DNA of 43,034 nt from Eubacteriales bacterium (GTDB taxonomy: Bacteria > Bacillota > Clostridia > Oscillospirales > CAG-272). The notes under the pieces were generated by a model that saw only the letters and a list, made by a program, of their open reading frames with translations, was not told the origin of the DNA and made no database searches. Below, in pieces: positions 16-36,882 of this stretch. Positions within the stretch are counted from its first letter, which is position 1. Every line of letters starts with the position of its first letter. The position numbers and the translations under genes are program-made. Where the stretch lies: the NCBI GenBank assembly GCA_045614425.1, contig JAZLCX010000033.1:1-43034 (forward strand), given 5' to 3'.

Positions 16-441
16 TTATTGGGGCTCAATATGTTGTTCTAACTTTGAAATTTTATCAATTCGAGATAATTTTATATGTTTGATGATAGAAACGATCTCA
101 AGCACAACAAGCGCCAAACCATACAAAAACAGAAGGCATAATGCATTGCCCACAACGCCACGTAGCAAAAGCCACGTCATAGGAATAATGCCAACTATCG
201 CCACCACCACTATGCTATTGAAAACGGGGTGGATCTTCTTGAATACCTTTATCACGGAAAGAACAGCATCAACGAAATAGAAAAACAAGCTGCAGATTGC
301 TGGCAAAGAGCCGAGCAGCCACAACGCAAGGCCTAAGCCTCGGTCTGCTTGTCCTAAGAAAATAGGTGTCCAAAGACTAAACGTAAGAATGGTCATAAGC
401 ATAGCAATCATACCGGGTATTTTAACGTAGACCTTCTTCAT
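16..441 (-). CDS. Hypothetical integral membrane protein (~4 TM helices)
   Basis: 141-aa ORF with four hydrophobic stretches, GGGGAAG RBS before ATG, and a TTGAAA-17-TATAAT promoter on the minus strand (~472-500). Confidence 0.75.
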   Translation of the reverse strand: MKKVYVKIPGMIAMLMTILTFSLWTPIFLGQADRGLGLALWLLGSLPAICSLFFYFVDAVLSVIKVFKKIHPVFNSIVVVAIVGIIPMTWLLLRGVVGNALCLLFLYGLALVVLEIVSIIKHIKLSRIDKISKLEQHIEPQ

Positions 442-1039: not shown

Positions 1040-1114
1040 TGGAGGCGCCACCCAGATTTGAACTGGGGGATAAGGGTTTTGCAGACCCGTGCCTTACCAC
1101 TTGGCTATGGCGCC
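1040..1114 (-). tRNA. tRNA-Cys (GCA)
   Basis: Reverse complement GGCGCCATAGCCAAGTGGTAAGGCACGGGTCTGCAAAACCCTTATCCCCCAGTTCAAATCTGGGTGGCGCCTCCA: cloverleaf, anticodon GCA, TTCAAAT T-loop, encoded CCA. Confidence 0.97.
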
Positions 1115-16872: not shown

Positions 16873-16968
16873 GCTTCCCAAAACGATTTCAATTATTAAT
16901 ATATTTTTTCTATATCTATTGACAAACCTATTTTATATGTGTTAAAATGAAATGTCCATAAGGATAAA

Positions 16969-17185
16969 GATAGAGGCGCACTGCACGAAGATTACCGTAC
17001 CTTGTTTGGCTGCCAAAGCCGTACGGGAAAGGCGTGGGTGCCGAAGTGAGTACCGTGGCGGGTGCTTGGCTGGCAGTTCGGAGAATATCCGCCCTGTTGT
17101 CGTGTAATGCGGAGTGCTATCAAAAATAAACTGTACGTGTGCGTATGCTTTTTTTGAGATGGCTTTTCGTGTGGCTGTCTCTTTT
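16969..17185 (+). promoter_or_regulatory. Lysine riboswitch (aptamer 16969-17121) with terminator (17156-17185)
   Basis: P1 GATAG/CTATC, conserved AGAGGCGC, GAAAGG, GCCGAA and GGAGTGCT; GAGATGGC/GCTGTCTC-TTTT hairpin; upstream of dapA-dapB-ddh-lysA. Confidence 0.9.
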
Positions 17186-33366: not shown

Positions 33367-33830
33367 AGGTTATTTTACCGGGAAGCTATGACCCCGTGAC
33401 CCTCGGTCACCTTGAAATCATAAAGAGAGCCGCCGCCGTCTATGACGAGGTATATGCCGTGGCATTTGTAAACCCGAAGAAAGAGTATCTCTTCTCACCG
33501 AAGGAGAAGGTGGAAATGCTGGCACTCGCCACTGCGGGACTTCCGAACGTGAAGGTGGGGTACTCGGACGGATACGTAATCGATTATATGCGAAGCGAGG
33601 GAATCGGGAAGATAGTCAAGGGATACCGCAACGATGCTGACCTTGAATATGAGAAAATTCAGGCGGACTACAATTTTAAATCGGGCGGATATCAAACAGA
33701 GCTTTGGCTTGCCGACGATAAATATAAAATGATAAGCTCCACCGAGGCGCGCAGGCTTATTCATTCGGGCGGAGATTTATCCGAGCTTTTACCCGAATCC
33801 GTGATAGAGTACATAAAGAAAAACCATTAA
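33363..33830 (+). CDS. coaD: Pantetheine-phosphate adenylyltransferase
   Basis: PGSYDPVTLGH, NPKK, KGYR, ISST; follows rsmD. Confidence 0.93.
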   Translation: MKVILPGSYDPVTLGHLEIIKRAAAVYDEVYAVAFVNPKKEYLFSPKEKVEMLALATAGLPNVKVGYSDGYVIDYMRSEGIGKIVKGYRNDADLEYEKIQADYNFKSGGYQTELWLADDKYKMISSTEARRLIHSGGDLSELLPESVIEYIKKNH

Positions 33831-33860
33831 AAAACCGACCATTGCAATGGTCGGGTTTTT
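33831..33860. terminator. Bidirectional terminator between coaD and XRE gene
   Basis: CCGACCAT/ATGGTCGG stem with flanking A and T runs. Confidence 0.75.
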
Positions 33861-34113
33861 AGATTAAAAGATCGGAACAATAAAGCTCACATATCGATTT
33901 TTTAAGAACCTTCGAGAGGTAGATTAATTCAATATCGGTGATAAATCGCTGACCGGATTCCATTCTTTGCACGGCGTTTTTGTCGACATCGAGACCGGAA
34001 AGCTGGAGTCTGTCAGCAAGCTCCCTTTGCGATATTTTCATTTCTTTTCTAAATTTTGCAATATTTATACCGCAAGCGTTGTTTTTTCCGGCTTTAGTTT
34101 TGTTAATAAACAC
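33859..34113 (-). CDS. XRE-family HTH transcriptional regulator
   Basis: ISQRELADRL...VQRMESGQR HTH; GTG start with GGAGG RBS. Confidence 0.9.
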   Translation of the reverse strand: MFINKTKAGKNNACGINIAKFRKEMKISQRELADRLQLSGLDVDKNAVQRMESGQRFITDIELIYLSKVLKKSICELYCSDLLI

Positions 34114-34130
34114 AAAAAATCCTCCAAATT

Positions 34131-34202
34131 TGACATTTAGTGCTTGTCATTTTCTAAATTATATGATATAATAGCGTCAGACATGACATTTAGTGAATGT
34201 CA
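34131..34202. promoter_or_regulatory. Two TGACA-N9-TGTCA operators bracketing the TM2 promoter
   Basis: TGACATTTAGTGCTTGTCA (34131-34149) and TGACATTTAGTGAATGTCA (34184-34202); promoter TTGTCA 34144-34149, 17 nt, TATAAT 34167-34172. Confidence 0.75.
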
Positions 34203-34229
34203 AATTCGTTTTTTAAGGAGAGACTGACA

Positions 34230-34565
34230 ATGGATCAGCAAAAGGTAGATTTGTACATTATGTCAAATCAAAAGTATTTCCCGGCGGAAAAAATGATGTA
34301 TTTGAAGGAGAAGCTTTCAAAGATCGACGAGAGTAAGTTTGCACTTCTTTCAAGCATTGAGTTAAAGGACCCGACAACCATTCTTTTGGTTTCACTGCTC
34401 ATAGGAGGATGGGGAGTTGACAGATTTTTACTTGGAGATGTTGCCATGGGAGTGTTGAAGCTTCTTACCGGCGGTCTTTGCGGAATACTTACAATCATAG
34501 ATTGGTTCAGCGCTTCCAAAAAAGCTAAGGAAATCAATTTTAACACCGTAATGACTATGCTTTGA
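34230..34565 (+). CDS. TM2 domain-containing membrane protein
   Basis: KDP...LIGGWGVDRFLLG...KLLTGGLCGILTIID; AAGGAG RBS. Confidence 0.9.
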   Translation: MDQQKVDLYIMSNQKYFPAEKMMYLKEKLSKIDESKFALLSSIELKDPTTILLVSLLIGGWGVDRFLLGDVAMGVLKLLTGGLCGILTIIDWFSASKKAKEINFNTVMTML

Positions 34566-34570
34566 TTGGC

Positions 34571-34900
34571 GTGAGAAAATTTTTAACAAGGTATACCGTA
34601 CCGATAAGCGTTATCGGAGTATTTTTCGTAGCATTCTTCTTTTTTAATTTTACCTGCCCGATATATTTTATTTTCGATGTACCTTGTCCTGCTTGCGGAG
34701 TAACGCGAGCTATGCTCTCTTTGCTTCGTCTTGATTTTTCGGCGTATCTTGAATACAATGCTATGGCAATCCCTCTTGTTATGGCAACGCTGCTTATGCT
34801 TTTGAGAAAGAGAGTAAAGCACCGCCTCTTGCTTCACGGATTTGTAACGATTGTCCTCGTACTTAATTCTGTGTACTACATATTCAGATTGCTGCAATAA
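34571..34900 (+). CDS. DUF2752 family membrane protein
   Basis: CP......PCPACGVTRA...L..DF..Y..YN motif with three TM segments; start uncertain (GTG 34571 or TTG 34562). Confidence 0.85.
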   Translation: MRKFLTRYTVPISVIGVFFVAFFFFNFTCPIYFIFDVPCPACGVTRAMLSLLRLDFSAYLEYNAMAIPLVMATLLMLLRKRVKHRLLLHGFVTIVLVLNSVYYIFRLLQ

Positions 34901-34938
34901 AGTACTGCATATTCAGATTGCCGAATAAATTAATAATG

Positions 34939-34972
34939 AAAGTCCGGCGTACGTTTTGTGCGCCGGACTTTT
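34939..34972 (+). terminator. Intrinsic terminator after DUF2752 gene
   Basis: AAAGTCCGGCG/CGCCGGACTTT stem. Confidence 0.8.
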
Positions 34973-35039
34973 GTACGCTTTGTGATTTAAGCTGTATTTT
35001 ACTCTTGACATAGGTATTCTCCTTTGTTATAATAATATC

Positions 35040-35149
35040 GCCACTTGACTCTTAACGAGTTAGCTACGGTATGTTCGCGTAGCCGGAGAAGAAGCTATGG
35101 CTTTTAGGCGAGACTTCTCACACACCACTCCTTCGGGAGTGGTTTTTTT
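35040..35149 (+). ncRNA. Putative structured small RNA, cassette 1 (type A)
   Basis: TTGACA 35005-35010, 17 nt, TG-n-TATAAT 35028-35033; three hairpins then ACCACTCC-TTCG-GGAGTGGT-T run terminator; no RBS/ORF. Confidence 0.7.
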
Positions 35150-35295
35150 ATTTTCTCCGCTTTCGCCGAGAACGCAGCTGAAAAAGAAAAAAATGCGAAA
35201 AAGTATCTTTCGCATTTAATTACAGAATATACGCTTTGTGATTTAAGCTGTATTTTACACTTGACATTTTCTTTCTCCTATGTTATAATTGTTAA

Positions 35296-35400
35296 GACGA
35301 CTGTAAGCGTCGGGAACCGACTGAGTTGAGGTTTACCTGCGAACTCACAAAAGGCGATAGACGACCGTCTTTTTTTAAATGCTCTTCGGAGCATTTTTTT
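35296..35400 (+). ncRNA. Putative structured small RNA, cassette 2 (type B)
   Basis: TTGACA 35261-35266, 17 nt, TG-n-TATAAT 35284-35289; hairpins GTCGG/CCGAC and TGAGTT/AACTCA; terminator AAATGCTC-TTCG-GAGCATTT-T run. Confidence 0.65.
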
Positions 35401-35544
35401 ATTTTCTCCGCTTTCGCCGAGAACGCAGCTGAAAAGAAAAAATGCGGAAAAGTATCTTTCGCATTTAATTACAGAATATACGCTTTGTGATTTAAACTAT
35501 AATTTACACTTGACATTTAAAAACTCCTATGCTATAATATTTTT

Positions 35545-35648
35545 GCCATTGGCTCTAGGGCTAGCTACGGTATGTTCGCGTAGACAGAGAAGACGTGTTG
35601 GCTTAAAAGCGAGACTTCTCAAAGACCACTCTTCCGAGAGTGGTTTTC
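35545..35648 (+). ncRNA. Putative structured small RNA, cassette 3 (type A homolog)
   Basis: TTGACA 35510-35515, 17 nt, TG-n-TATAAT 35533-35538; homologous to cassette 1 with compensatory changes; terminator ACCACTCT-TCCG-AGAGTGGT-T run. Confidence 0.7.
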
Positions 35649-35764
35649 TTTTTTTATTTTCTCCGCTTTCGTCGGGAACGCAGCTGAAAAAGAAAAAATG
35701 CGAAAAAGTATCTTTCGCACTTAATTATAAAATATACAGAGATGAGATTTTTTGACTGAAAACA

Positions 35765-35793
35765 TTGACAAAACACTATATTTAGTTTATAAT
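35765..35793 (+). promoter_or_regulatory. pheST promoter
   Basis: TTGACA 35765-35770, 17 nt, TATAAT 35788-35793. Confidence 0.8.
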
Positions 35794-35859
35794 AAATAAG
35801 TTATTATTTGACTTTTGCCGCGGCAGGCTTGCCGGCGGCACGGAAAGGACCTTCAAACG

Positions 35860-36882
35860 ATGGAAGAAATGATTTTACAGCTTAAAGCACGTTTTGAAAG
35901 CGAACTTGCTCTTGCATCCGATGCAGCTACTCTTGAGTCGTTAAGAGTTAATTTTCTCGGCAAAAAGGGCGCAGTAGCGGAGCTTATGAAGGGGCTTCGC
36001 GACGCACAGGATAAAAAGGCGGCAGGACAGCTTATCAACACGTTTAAGACTGAGGTTGAAGAGGCAATCAGCAAGGCTGAGGAGACTCTTCGCACAGCGG
36101 CTATCGAGGCTGAAATAAGGGGAGCTAAAAAGTATAACCCCACCCTTGCCTTTGAGCGTGAGCTCGGCTCGTATCACCCCATAACACTCGCAACCCGTGA
36201 GGTTGAGGCAGTTTTTGAAAGCATGGGCTTTACGGTTGAGAATTATTTTGAAATAGTTGACGACTACAAGTGCTTTGAGGCGCTTAATATTCCGAAGCAT
36301 CACCCCGCACGCGATATGCAGGATACCTATTACCTCGATAACGGTCAGCTTCTTAAGACGCATACCTCGGCGGCGCAGAATGCCATAATGAAGAAGTACG
36401 GAGCACCCCTTCGTGCGATATTCCCCGGACGCTGCTTCAGAAACGAATCCACCGATGCGTGTCACGAGAACACCTTCTTCCAGATGGAAGGTATGATGAT
36501 TGACGAAAACATATCCATATCTAACCTTATCTACTTTATGAAGACCATGCTTTCCGAGGTCTTCAAGCGCGACGTTAAGGTAAGACTTCGCCCCGGATTT
36601 TTCCCGTTTGTCGAGCCGGGATTCGAGCTTGATATAAACTGCGAGATTTGCGGCGGCGACGGATGCCCCTCTTGTAAAAACTCGGGCTGGCTTGAGCTTT
36701 GTCCCTGCGGAATGATACACCCCAACGTACTTCGTGAGGGCGGAATCGACACCGAGAAGTATTCGGGCTTTGCGTTCGGTCTCGGTCTCACCCGTCTTGC
36801 GATGATGAGATACGGAGTAAAGGATATCCGCGATTTCAACAGCGGAAACCTCAAGGCTCTTTCGCAGTTTAAGTCTATATAA
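35860..36882 (+). CDS. pheS: Phenylalanine-tRNA ligase alpha subunit
   Basis: HPARDMQDT, LLKTHTS, FFQMEG, FPFVEP, GFAFGLG; ATG 35860 after GGAAAGGA. Confidence 0.97.
   Translation: MEEMILQLKARFESELALASDAATLESLRVNFLGKKGAVAELMKGLRDAQDKKAAGQLINTFKTEVEEAISKAEETLRTAAIEAEIRGAKKYNPTLAFERELGSYHPITLATREVEAVFESMGFTVENYFEIVDDYKCFEALNIPKHHPARDMQDTYYLDNGQLLKTHTSAAQNAIMKKYGAPLRAIFPGRCFRNESTDACHENTFFQMEGMMIDENISISNLIYFMKTMLSEVFKRDVKVRLRPGFFPFVEPGFELDINCEICGGDGCPSCKNSGWLELCPCGMIHPNVLREGGIDTEKYSGFAFGLGLTRLAMMRYGVKDIRDFNSGNLKALSQFKSI

What the first reader, a model, noticed from the sequence alone, without database searches (positions are those of the whole stretch)
34974..35737. Tandem array of three self-contained small-RNA cassettes with a conserved frame and different payloads (A-B-A')
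Seen: three units of 256, 249 and 256 bp (starts 34974, 35230, 35479; similarity ends at TAC 35735-35737). Each has a conserved AT-rich lead-in, TTGACA-17-TATAAT with a TG extension, a G exactly 7 nt after the -10, a ~105-110-nt hairpin-rich payload ending in an intrinsic terminator, and a near-identical ~85-nt spacer. The frame is almost invariant while payload 2 is unrelated to payloads 1 and 3, which simple tandem duplication does not explain. No RBS-led ORF, cas gene or integrase is nearby. Inference: a library of independently transcribed ncRNAs placed in a common expression frame. One hypothesis is orphan antitoxin or decoy RNAs (as in type III TA systems) collected away from their cognate proteins. 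I do not recognise it as a described element.
Basis: partly seen in the sequence, partly recalled or inferred. Interest (0 to 1): 0.9.

Follow-up and report, generated by a model that had tools for sequence, protein, structure and literature searches.

The report
Orphan antisense small-RNA gene array
Three small structured RNA genes sit side by side; in other gut bacteria the same RNAs are always paired, on the opposite strand, with a small unknown protein gene of a mobile element, but here only the RNAs and a 12-codon stub of that gene remain.

Summary
Three real small-RNA genes (A-B-A'), each with its own promoter and terminator, lie in a ~2-kb insertion between coaD and pheS. They are not cassettes in a neutral frame.

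A and B belong to two RNA families absent from Rfam 15. Each has a covariation-supported fold in which the 5' end pairs with the loop of a 3' hairpin (a pseudoknot).

In other gut Clostridia genomes and metagenomes, each family is encoded antisense, directly upstream of a ~100-aa basic protein gene. The two protein families are paralogous and unannotated. The RNA's -35 hexamer contains the protein's start codon, and the promoter spacer contains its Shine-Dalgarno.

The full protein was not found in this genome.

In the loci examined the protein never occurs without the RNA. Most RNA copies in this genus are orphans with intact promoters and folds. Mixed arrays of 2-5 units recur elsewhere. Complete modules sit in integrated islands that often carry an HUH-SF3 Rep.

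Best reading: orphaned countertranscript or antitoxin-like RNAs of a mobile-element module. The function is inferred, not shown. Only the ~85-nt spacer is specific to this array.

The parts
33831..35842 (.). About 2-kb insertion between coaD and pheS that carries the array
   Evidence: In 7 of 11 relatives' pheS loci, the rsmD and coaD homologues end about 40-150 nt before pheS. In the window coaD ends at 33830 and pheS starts at 35863. Relatives' DNA matches to pheS begin only about 20 nt before the ATG.
33859..34113 (-). XRE-type HTH regulator gene inside the insertion
   Evidence: Pfam HTH_3, E 5.3e-8
34197..34565 (+). TM2-domain membrane protein gene inside the insertion
   Evidence: Pfam TM2, E 3.8e-13
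34562..34900 (+). DUF2752 protein gene inside the insertion
   Evidence: Pfam DUF2752, E 4.5e-15
34974..35011 (-). Stub 1: first ~12 codons (MSRVKYSLNHKA) of the A-partner protein gene. Its ATG is the complement of CAT in TTGACAT.
   Evidence: family N-terminus MSSVNYSLKHKG
35005..35033 (+). Promoter 1, which also holds the stub's SD (AGGAG) and ATG on the minus strand
   Evidence: 12/12 match with TG extension
35040..35152 (+). A1 RNA gene (family A), ending in an intrinsic terminator at 35124-35143 plus a U run
   Evidence: Model R1 scores 102.7 bits. 31 of 36 family pairs are kept. Fold z-score -3.0.
35143..35229 (.). Spacer 1, with a minus-strand terminator-like hairpin at 35191-35217
35223..35267 (-). 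Stub 2: 15-codon ORF MSSVKYSLNHKAYIL
35261..35289 (+). Promoter 2
   Evidence: 12/12 match with TG extension
35296..35403 (+). B RNA gene (family B), with terminator at 35377-35396
   Evidence: Model R2 scores 121.6 bits. 29 of 32 family pairs are kept.
35394..35478. Spacer 2 (holds the same hairpin sequence at 35440-35466; not listed as a terminator-like site)
35472..35516 (-). Stub 3: 15-codon ORF MSSVNYSLNHKAYIL
35510..35538 (+). Promoter 3
   Evidence: 12/12 match with TG extension
35545..35657 (+). A3 RNA gene (family A), with terminator at 35622-35647
   Evidence: Model R1 scores 91.9 bits. 32 of 36 pairs are kept.
35649..35737 (.). Spacer 3, with a minus-strand terminator-like hairpin at 35696-35722. 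Similarity ends at 35737.
35765..35793 (+). pheS promoter, 12/12 match, in phase with the array (255 nt after promoter 3) but without the CTCCT/TG signature

Best explanation
The array holds three orphan copies of two related families of pseudoknotted small RNAs (A, B, A').

In their native state these RNAs are countertranscripts of a mobile-element operon. Each RNA gene fills the intergenic leader in front of a ~100-aa basic protein gene, on the opposite strand. Its strong promoter is interlocked with that gene's ribosome-binding site and start codon.

Inferred mechanism in the native module: constant head-on transcription plus pairing of the RNA with the complementary leader keeps the protein gene, and the genes behind it, silent or low.

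In the window the protein genes have been reduced to 12-codon stubs, but the RNA genes keep perfect promoters, terminators and folds. They have also been multiplied.

Inferred role of the orphans: they act in trans on incoming or resident elements that carry matching modules, either as immunity or incompatibility factors or as antidotes.

Shown here: the RNA families, their folds, the obligatory antisense linkage to the protein families, the stubs, the insertion, and the excess of orphans. Inferred: repression, trans action, and any toxicity of the protein. The confidence given is for the whole statement; the identity and origin of the units alone I hold at about 0.9.
For: Promoters and terminators.

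A fold: 48 sequences, 89.7% of cells paired against 36-45% when the partner is slid. 33 of 36 pairs show compensatory changes, and 0 of 500 shuffles reach the observed values. The pseudoknot core helix is 95.8% paired, with GC to AU, CG to UA and CG to AU swaps.

B fold: 12 sequences, 94.4% paired against 27-48% when slid. 16 of 32 pairs show compensatory changes.

Strand: G-U cells outnumber A-C cells 75 to 29 in family A, so the promoter-bearing strand is the one that folds.

Linkage: all 40 of 40 protein-anchored genome loci with upstream DNA carry TTGACA in register with the start codon (38 TTGACAT giving ATG, 2 TTGACAA giving TTG). Model R1 finds an A RNA next to the protein match in these loci. 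L098 is the exception: it carries a B RNA next to an A-type stub. For family B, 10 of 10 metagenome loci plus G010 and G084 have the B RNA in the same layout.

Protein families: 279 homologues for the A partner and 274 for the B partner. The two are paralogous (hhalign probability 94%, E 9.5e-8).

Operon position: the nearest upstream same-strand ORF ends 129-181 nt before the ATG in 25 of 41 loci. Only 6 of 41 loci have a sense promoter of at least 10/12 within 400 nt.

Orphans in the 151-genome genus draw: 12 of 14 A copies and 6 of 8 B copies lack a full-length partner. The window copies keep 31/36, 32/36 and 29/32 pairs, which is within the family range.

Elsewhere: L096 has five A copies with stubs of 5-38 aa. 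L088 and L081 have an orphan B beside a complete A module. L064 has three complete modules.

Mobile context: Rep_OBD plus an SF3 helicase domain lies upstream in 11 of 37 loci. The window array lies in an insertion.
Against: There are no expression data for either strand.

The RNA does not cover the SD or AUG; complementarity ends about 20 nt upstream of the SD. Simple occlusion of the ribosome site is therefore unlikely.

A conserved pseudoknot and invariant unpaired nucleotides are more than an antisense RNA needs. They fit a protein- or ligand-binding RNA at least as well.

Trans action needs complementarity to a target. A1 and A3 differ by 24%, and I found no matching element in this genome: no Rep and no full-length protein, in an 85%-complete MAG.

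The mobile-element assignment rests on neighbours present in only part of the loci. Only 1 hit (A) and 0 hits (B) turned up in 2.9 million viral contigs.

I derived the structures by eye from the same sequences on which the pairs were then counted.
Confidence: 0.45

Rival explanations
1. RNA-protein antidote pair, working like a type III toxin-antitoxin system. The pseudoknotted RNA binds and neutralises the small basic protein. Orphan RNAs are anti-addiction antidotes kept after the harmful protein gene was lost.
For: The protein never occurs without the RNA, while the RNA often occurs without the protein. Truncated stubs are common: many clusters of 36-90 aa match only residues 1-35..60. RNA families A and B co-diversify with the two paralogous protein families. 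The conserved pseudoknot and invariant unpaired bases suggest a binding surface. 8 of 99 family members weakly match the defence-candidate profile PDC-S15 (best E 7.7e-6).
Against: The gene layout is unlike type III systems: there are no short processed repeats and the RNA is on the opposite strand. The protein matches no known toxin family or fold. Up to three complete modules lie in series in one element (L064). Toxicity and binding are untested.
Confidence: 0.25
2. Domesticated trans-acting sibling sRNAs. The orphan copies now regulate host mRNAs, as with tandem paralogous sRNAs in other Firmicutes, and the mobile-element origin is only history.
For: Each unit has its own strong promoter of the same type as this genome's tRNA promoters. 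The units are tandemly multiplied, and the folds are intact.
Against: I identified no seed or target. The RNAs are present in only 10 of 151 (A) and 8 of 151 (B) genus genomes, at non-syntenic sites. That distribution fits mobile cargo better than a host regulon.
Confidence: 0.1
3. Inert relics. The array is the decaying remainder of one or more integrated elements, with no present function.
For: The protein genes are reduced to stubs. The array lies in an insertion. Stubs of varied length occur elsewhere.
Against: All three promoters are perfect 12/12. The terminators are intact and 29-32 of 32-36 helix pairs are kept, while the adjoining coding sequence is gone. The units were duplicated after truncation, since they share the same stub breakpoint. 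Orphans with intact promoters recur in 8 of the 10 genus genomes that have the A RNA.
Confidence: 0.12
4. One reading: a cassette platform that collects unrelated ncRNA payloads into a common expression frame.
For: Payload B sits between A and A' within near-identical spacers. So one payload exchange or conversion inside a shared frame did happen. Unit number varies between genomes.
Against: The promoter and lead-in are intrinsic to every A/B gene, including single copies in other genomes. There is no integrase or recombination site. The spacer has no relatives in the loci fetched. A and B are architecturally related partners of paralogous proteins, not arbitrary payloads.
Confidence: 0.03

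Closest known systems
Type I toxin-antitoxin pairs with a cis-antisense RNA at the toxin's 5' end (SymE/SymR type; recalled, no call)
   Same: A small RNA is made from the opposite strand at the 5' end of a ~100-aa non-membrane protein gene. The RNA promoter is interlocked with the gene's translation start. Orphan RNA copies outlive the protein gene.
   Different: Here the RNA starts upstream of the SD, so it does not cover the SD or AUG. It carries a conserved pseudoknot. The protein has no detectable relation to SymE or any toxin. Toxicity is unknown.
Countertranscripts of rolling-circle and other Gram-positive plasmids (pMV158 RNAII, pT181 RNAI/II, pIP501 RNAIII; recalled, no call)
   Same: A short, structured RNA made constitutively from a strong promoter, antisense to the leader of an operon on a Rep-encoding element. 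It ends at an intrinsic terminator and could act in trans as an incompatibility factor.
   Different: The target leader precedes the gene after rep, not rep itself. One element can carry up to three such modules. The elements are integrated in long chromosomal contigs.
Type III toxin-antitoxin systems (ToxIN, CptIN, TenpIN; abstracts seen in the listing: PMC5086642, PMC8860590, PMC4627078)
   Same: Pseudoknotted RNA paired with a protein. The RNA can be present in several tandem copies.
   Different: Type III antitoxins are short repeats on the toxin's strand, under one promoter, and are cut out by the toxin, which is an endoribonuclease. Here each unit is a ~110-nt gene with its own promoter and terminator on the opposite strand. 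The protein matches no ToxN-type family in Pfam or PADLOC.
RNA-based immunity of P4 (CI RNA) and P1/P7 (c4 RNA) (recalled, no call)
   Same: A small RNA of a mobile element silences the element's own operon and protects the host against superinfection in trans.
   Different: Those RNAs are processed from longer transcripts and act on defined sites. No target site or processing is known here.
Tandem sibling sRNA genes such as Listeria LhrC1-4 (recalled, no call)
   Same: Head-to-tail paralogous sRNA genes, each with its own promoter and terminator.
   Different: Those are host regulon members with a known seed. The RNAs here are tied to a mobile-element protein gene and are patchily distributed.

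Membership tests
Any Rfam 15 family | Covariance-model match at the family's gathering score | tested here: not met
   No match in 34800-35900 reaches gathering. The best is BTnc231 at 30 bits against 80.4, on the minus strand.
Type III toxin-antitoxin | The antitoxin is an array of short (about 34-45 nt) direct repeats under one promoter | tested here: not met
   Units are 249-256 bp, each with its own 12/12 promoter and terminator.
Type III toxin-antitoxin | The toxin gene lies downstream on the same strand, after a terminator | tested here: not met
   The native partner gene is on the opposite strand and overlaps the RNA promoter. Downstream in the window is pheS.
Type III toxin-antitoxin | The toxin is a ToxN/AbiQ-type endoribonuclease | tested here: not met
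   No Pfam or PADLOC match for P0001 and no ToxN/AbiQ-type match for any of the four proteins scanned; the only PADLOC hits were RTasSLATT (E 0.04) and PDC-S15 (E 1.8e-5). No PDB fold match with E <= 0.001.
Type III toxin-antitoxin | The RNA pseudoknot binds and inhibits the toxin | not testable with these tools
   The pseudoknot is supported by covariation. Binding was not assessed.
Type I toxin-antitoxin (cis-antisense) | The RNA is encoded antisense to the 5' region of the protein's mRNA | tested here: met
   Met in 40 of 40 genome loci and 10 of 10 metagenome loci with upstream DNA. In the window only stubs of the gene remain.
Type I toxin-antitoxin (cis-antisense) | The protein is toxic (usually a small hydrophobic peptide) | not testable with these tools
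   The protein is ~100 aa, basic and beta-rich (pLDDT 88.7). It has no known family.
Plasmid copy-control countertranscript | The RNA is antisense to the leader of the rep mRNA | tested here: not met
   Where Rep is present (11 of 37 loci), the RNA lies after rep, in front of the next gene.
Plasmid copy-control countertranscript | A short structured RNA with a strong promoter and intrinsic terminator on a Rep-encoding element | tested here: met
Integron-like cassette array | An adjacent site-specific recombinase, with promoterless cassettes bounded by recombination sites | tested here: not met
   No integrase among the neighbours. Every unit has its own promoter.
Sibling trans-acting sRNA array | Tandem paralogous sRNA genes, each with its own promoter and terminator | tested here: met
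Sibling trans-acting sRNA array | A shared seed that pairs with host mRNAs | not tested
   No target search was run.

The most novel reading that the evidence does not exclude
Chromosomal arrays of orphan pseudoknotted RNAs are a heritable, RNA-only immunity or antidote system. They would act against a widespread but undescribed family of integrative elements of gut Clostridia. Each RNA type (A, A', B) would neutralise the module of one paralogous small protein. Arrays would grow by capture and duplication of RNA genes after the protein genes are lost.
Probability: 0.2. Interest if true: 0.85.

Novelty: new variant of a known kind. Interest (0 to 1): 0.62.

Why it matters
The finding uncovers two well-supported structured RNA families and two paralogous small-protein families that have no name in Rfam, Pfam, NCBIfam, PHROGs or the PDB. 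They are locked together by an unusual arrangement. One 29-bp stretch serves as promoter of the RNA on one strand and as ribosome-binding site plus start codon of the protein on the other. This arrangement is kept across proteins that have diverged to 28% identity.

The module is common in uncultured gut Clostridia of humans and livestock. The strong asymmetry (protein never alone, RNA mostly alone, RNA genes multiplied) is the signature expected of an antidote or immunity factor. If confirmed, it would be a new RNA-protein conflict system and a new way for hosts to retain immunity against mobile elements.

Both RNAs are also good candidates for new Rfam families and for structural study of a compact pseudoknot.

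Tried and rejected
Rfam at gathering and at E <= 10 gave nothing relevant.

A conserved minus-strand peptide as the point of the lead-in was rejected for the window. The ORFs stop after 15 codons, or read through a terminator in unit 1.

Phage origin: viral contigs gave 0 loci for B and 1 for A.

Fold and family of the protein: Pfam, PHROGs (best E 0.015), PADLOC, NCBIfam, a PDB sequence profile, Foldseek against PDB and BFVD, and the ESM Atlas gave no usable match. The PDC-S15 match (8 of 99 members) is kept only as a lead. No longer or fused forms were found. One 1259-aa protein with four weak repeats had no informative Pfam domain.

Synteny of the RNA flanks between species: none.

Spacer relatives in the fetched loci: only chance-level short matches.

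Single-strand origin of a rolling-circle element: considered and rejected. The units have ordinary double-strand promoters and terminators, occur up to three per element, and are each tied to a protein start.

Expression: no RNA holder was listed for 34900-35800.

Literature: searches found no description of these RNAs or proteins. I saw only listings and the starts of abstracts.

Complex prediction was not used, because no protein-protein claim is made.

Full report
OBSERVATION. The repeat finder gives three units with start-to-start spacing of 256 and 249 nt. The ~85-nt spacer is 86-94% identical in register, and payloads 1 and 3 are 83% identical over 94 nt. Four perfect TTGACA-17-TATAAT promoters start at 35005, 35261, 35510 and 35765. 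The first three carry the TG extension. The region has 7 promoter-like sites against 2.3 +/- 1.5 in shuffles, and 7 terminator-like sites against 1.7 +/- 1.2. These include + strand terminators closing each payload and minus-strand hairpins with T runs in spacers 1 and 3. The payloads fold better than shuffles (z = -3.0, -2.3, -1.9). By global alignment the spacers are 89-97% identical. Lead-in plus promoter are 77-82% identical, payloads A1/A3 76%, and A versus B about 50%. So only the spacer is 'almost invariant'. No Rfam family reaches its threshold. The array is unique in its genome, a 1.57-Mb MAG of 148 contigs that is 85% complete.

THE LEAD-IN IS A GENE STUB. Read on the minus strand, each promoter is AGGAG-N7-ATG. 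The ATG is the complement of CAT in TTGACAT, and the CTCCT of the promoter spacer is the Shine-Dalgarno. The ORFs read MSSVKYSLNHKAYIL in unit 2 and MSSVNYSLNHKAYIL in unit 3, and then stop. In two species of the same genus the same start opens a full gene of 104 and 101 aa (G019 = L044; G063 = L048). That protein has 279 homologues with E <= 1e-3 among 283 candidates. All are unnamed or 'hypothetical', and all come from gut Clostridia MAGs and metagenomes. Its N-terminus MSSVNYSLKHKG is nearly invariant. Between G019 and G006 the shared first ~27 codons differ largely by synonymous changes (my reading), so the stretch is protein-coding. The own genome has only the stubs (E 0.5 and 4).

OBLIGATORY LINKAGE. 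A scan of one genome per species returned 41 loci encoding this protein. All 40 loci with upstream DNA have TTGACA in register with the start codon: 38 read TTGACAT, giving ATG, and 2 read TTGACAA, giving TTG. Each is followed on the opposite strand by a ~110-nt RNA gene ending in a terminator. Model R1 recovers an A RNA at that place in these loci. The exception is L098, which carries a B RNA next to an A-type stub.

Payload B has its own partner, a 101-aa protein starting MSS[VI]YQPKRKE (G010), with 274 homologues. All 10 metagenome loci, plus G010 and G084, have the B RNA in the same interlocked layout. The two protein families are paralogous (hhalign probability 94%, E 9.5e-8, 28% identity over 95 columns). 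In the window and in G012, B carries an A-type stub. So B was joined to an A-type promoter region by recombination at the shared promoter.

RNA STRUCTURES. I aligned 48 A RNAs and tested a structure read from them. The 5' end pairs with the loop of the GAGAAG...CUUCUC hairpin, forming an H-type pseudoknot. Two hairpins lie in between and a terminator follows. 89.7% of cells are paired, against 36-45% when the partners are slid. 33 of 36 pairs carry compensatory changes, and no shuffle in 500 reaches the observed values. The core of the pseudoknot helix is 95.8% paired, with GC to AU, CG to UA and CG to AU exchanges.

Twelve B RNAs give the same architecture: the 5' end pairs with the loop of a 3' hairpin. 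94.4% of cells are paired against 27-48% when slid, and 16 of 32 pairs show compensatory changes.

G-U cells outnumber A-C cells 75 to 29 in family A, so the strand with the promoter is the one that folds. Cross-model scores are weak, at 10-13.5 bits. A and B are alike in plan rather than in sequence.

Caveat: I derived the structures from these same sequences, and the model E-values are rough.

CONTEXT OF COMPLETE MODULES. In 37 loci the neighbours recur on the protein's strand. A 433-aa protein with Rep_OBD (E 2.8e-7) and an SF3-type helicase domain (E 1.1e-5) lies upstream in 11 loci. Large membrane or secreted proteins lie downstream in 18 and 20 loci. The HUH-plus-SF3 combination is that of plasmid and ssDNA-virus Reps (PMC6668415; abstract only, from the listing).

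The nearest upstream same-strand ORF ends 129-181 nt before the protein's ATG in 25 of 41 loci. Only 6 of 41 loci have a sense promoter of at least 10/12 within 400 nt. So the RNA gene occupies an operon's intergenic leader, head-on. The contigs are long, up to 737 kb, so the elements are integrated. Viral contigs hold almost none: 0 hits for B and 1 for A.

The protein model is confident (pLDDT 88.7, pTM 0.78) but matches nothing in the PDB or BFVD. It also matches nothing usable in Pfam, PHROGs, NCBIfam, PADLOC (P0001), PDB sequences or the ESM Atlas. 8 of 99 members weakly match the defence-candidate profile PDC-S15. The whole superfamily comprises 114 clusters at 50% identity among 1.84 billion representatives. 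Many are short fragments that match only the N-terminus.

ORPHANS AND ARRAYS. In a draw of 151 genomes of the genus, A RNAs occur 14 times in 10 genomes. The full protein occurs only in G019 and G063, so 12 of 14 copies are orphans. B RNAs occur in 8 genomes, with the full protein in G010 and G084, so 6 of 8 are orphans. Six further hits that I inspected have stubs of 6-21 aa, or none, and good promoters.

Elsewhere, L096 holds five A copies with stubs of 5-38 aa. L094 holds three. L088 and L081 have an orphan B beside a complete A module. L111 has an orphan B beside a complete B module. L064 has three complete modules (two A-type and one B-type) in one element. G007 has two A genes abutting each other. 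Mixed multi-unit arrays are therefore a property of the system and not of this window.

The window copies keep 31/36, 32/36 and 29/32 of the family's pairs, within the family range.

THE WINDOW LOCUS. In 7 of 11 relatives' pheS loci, rsmD and coaD lie directly before pheS. In the window, 2032 nt separate coaD from pheS. This stretch holds an XRE regulator, a TM2 protein, a DUF2752 protein and the array. Further out are uvrC and pheT, and there is no integrase or cas gene. RNA flanks are not syntenic between species. All three stubs break at the same codon and share the spacer. So the units arose by duplication after truncation, with one exchange of payload. The spacer has no relatives in the loci fetched.

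INTERPRETATION. Shown: what the units are and where they come from. Inferred: in the native module, head-on transcription and pairing with the leader restrain the protein gene and the genes behind it. The orphans would act in trans as immunity, incompatibility or antidote factors.

The main rival is direct neutralisation of the protein by the folded RNA. It explains the pseudoknot and the asymmetry equally well. It is disfavoured only by the layout and by the lack of any toxin signature.

The promoter signature CTCyT-N-TG-N-TATAAT is also found before tRNA genes of this genome. So it is the organism's strong stable-RNA promoter type, not a special frame.

No expression data could be obtained. 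No RNA holder was listed (recorded under Tried and rejected only).

Noticed in passing
window 35765-35793: The pheS promoter is a fourth perfect TTGACA-17-TATAAT. It lies 255 nt after promoter 3, in phase with the array. The 100 nt before pheS are not homologous to relatives' pheS upstream DNA, so the insertion seems to have supplied pheS with a new promoter. No T-box leader was detected.
   Followed up: partly
window 34873-34929: A 29-bp tandem duplication (2.0 copies, 89% matches) covers the last codons and stop of the DUF2752 gene, just left of the array. It could be a junction scar.
   Followed up: no
window 34117-34279: Repeated and inverted TGACATTTAGTG-type motifs lie between the divergent XRE and TM2 genes. 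They look like operator sites.
   Followed up: no
L011 1100-1230 (+) and L028 about 2100-1990 (-): A further small structured RNA-like gene, with its own TTGACT-17-TATAAT promoter and terminator, lies convergent to the 3' end of the partner protein gene in G019 and next to the B locus in G007. It is similar in the two species.
   Followed up: no
L130 (G014:C2:10747-10889, -): This is a weak R1 hit (36 bits). It has the same promoter/start-codon interlock and a stub reading MSSVFVKQNKEK, but a different RNA body. It may be a third RNA family of the same system.
   Followed up: no
L010 about 640-540 (-), G007:C46: Another short promoter-plus-terminator unit (about 65 nt) lies just upstream of the two abutting A genes.
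   Followed up: no
window 16963-17127 (+) and 1043-1114 (-): A lysine riboswitch (72.3 bits) and a tRNA gene. The tRNA promoter shares the CTCyT-N-TG-N-TATAAT signature with the array's promoters.
   Followed up: partly
L052 3936-4781 (-), G007:C28; also cluster 11 in L058, L060 and L062: A ~281-324-aa protein with several CxxC zinc-finger motifs recurs next to the RNA/protein modules in several genomes. Its function is unknown.
   Followed up: no
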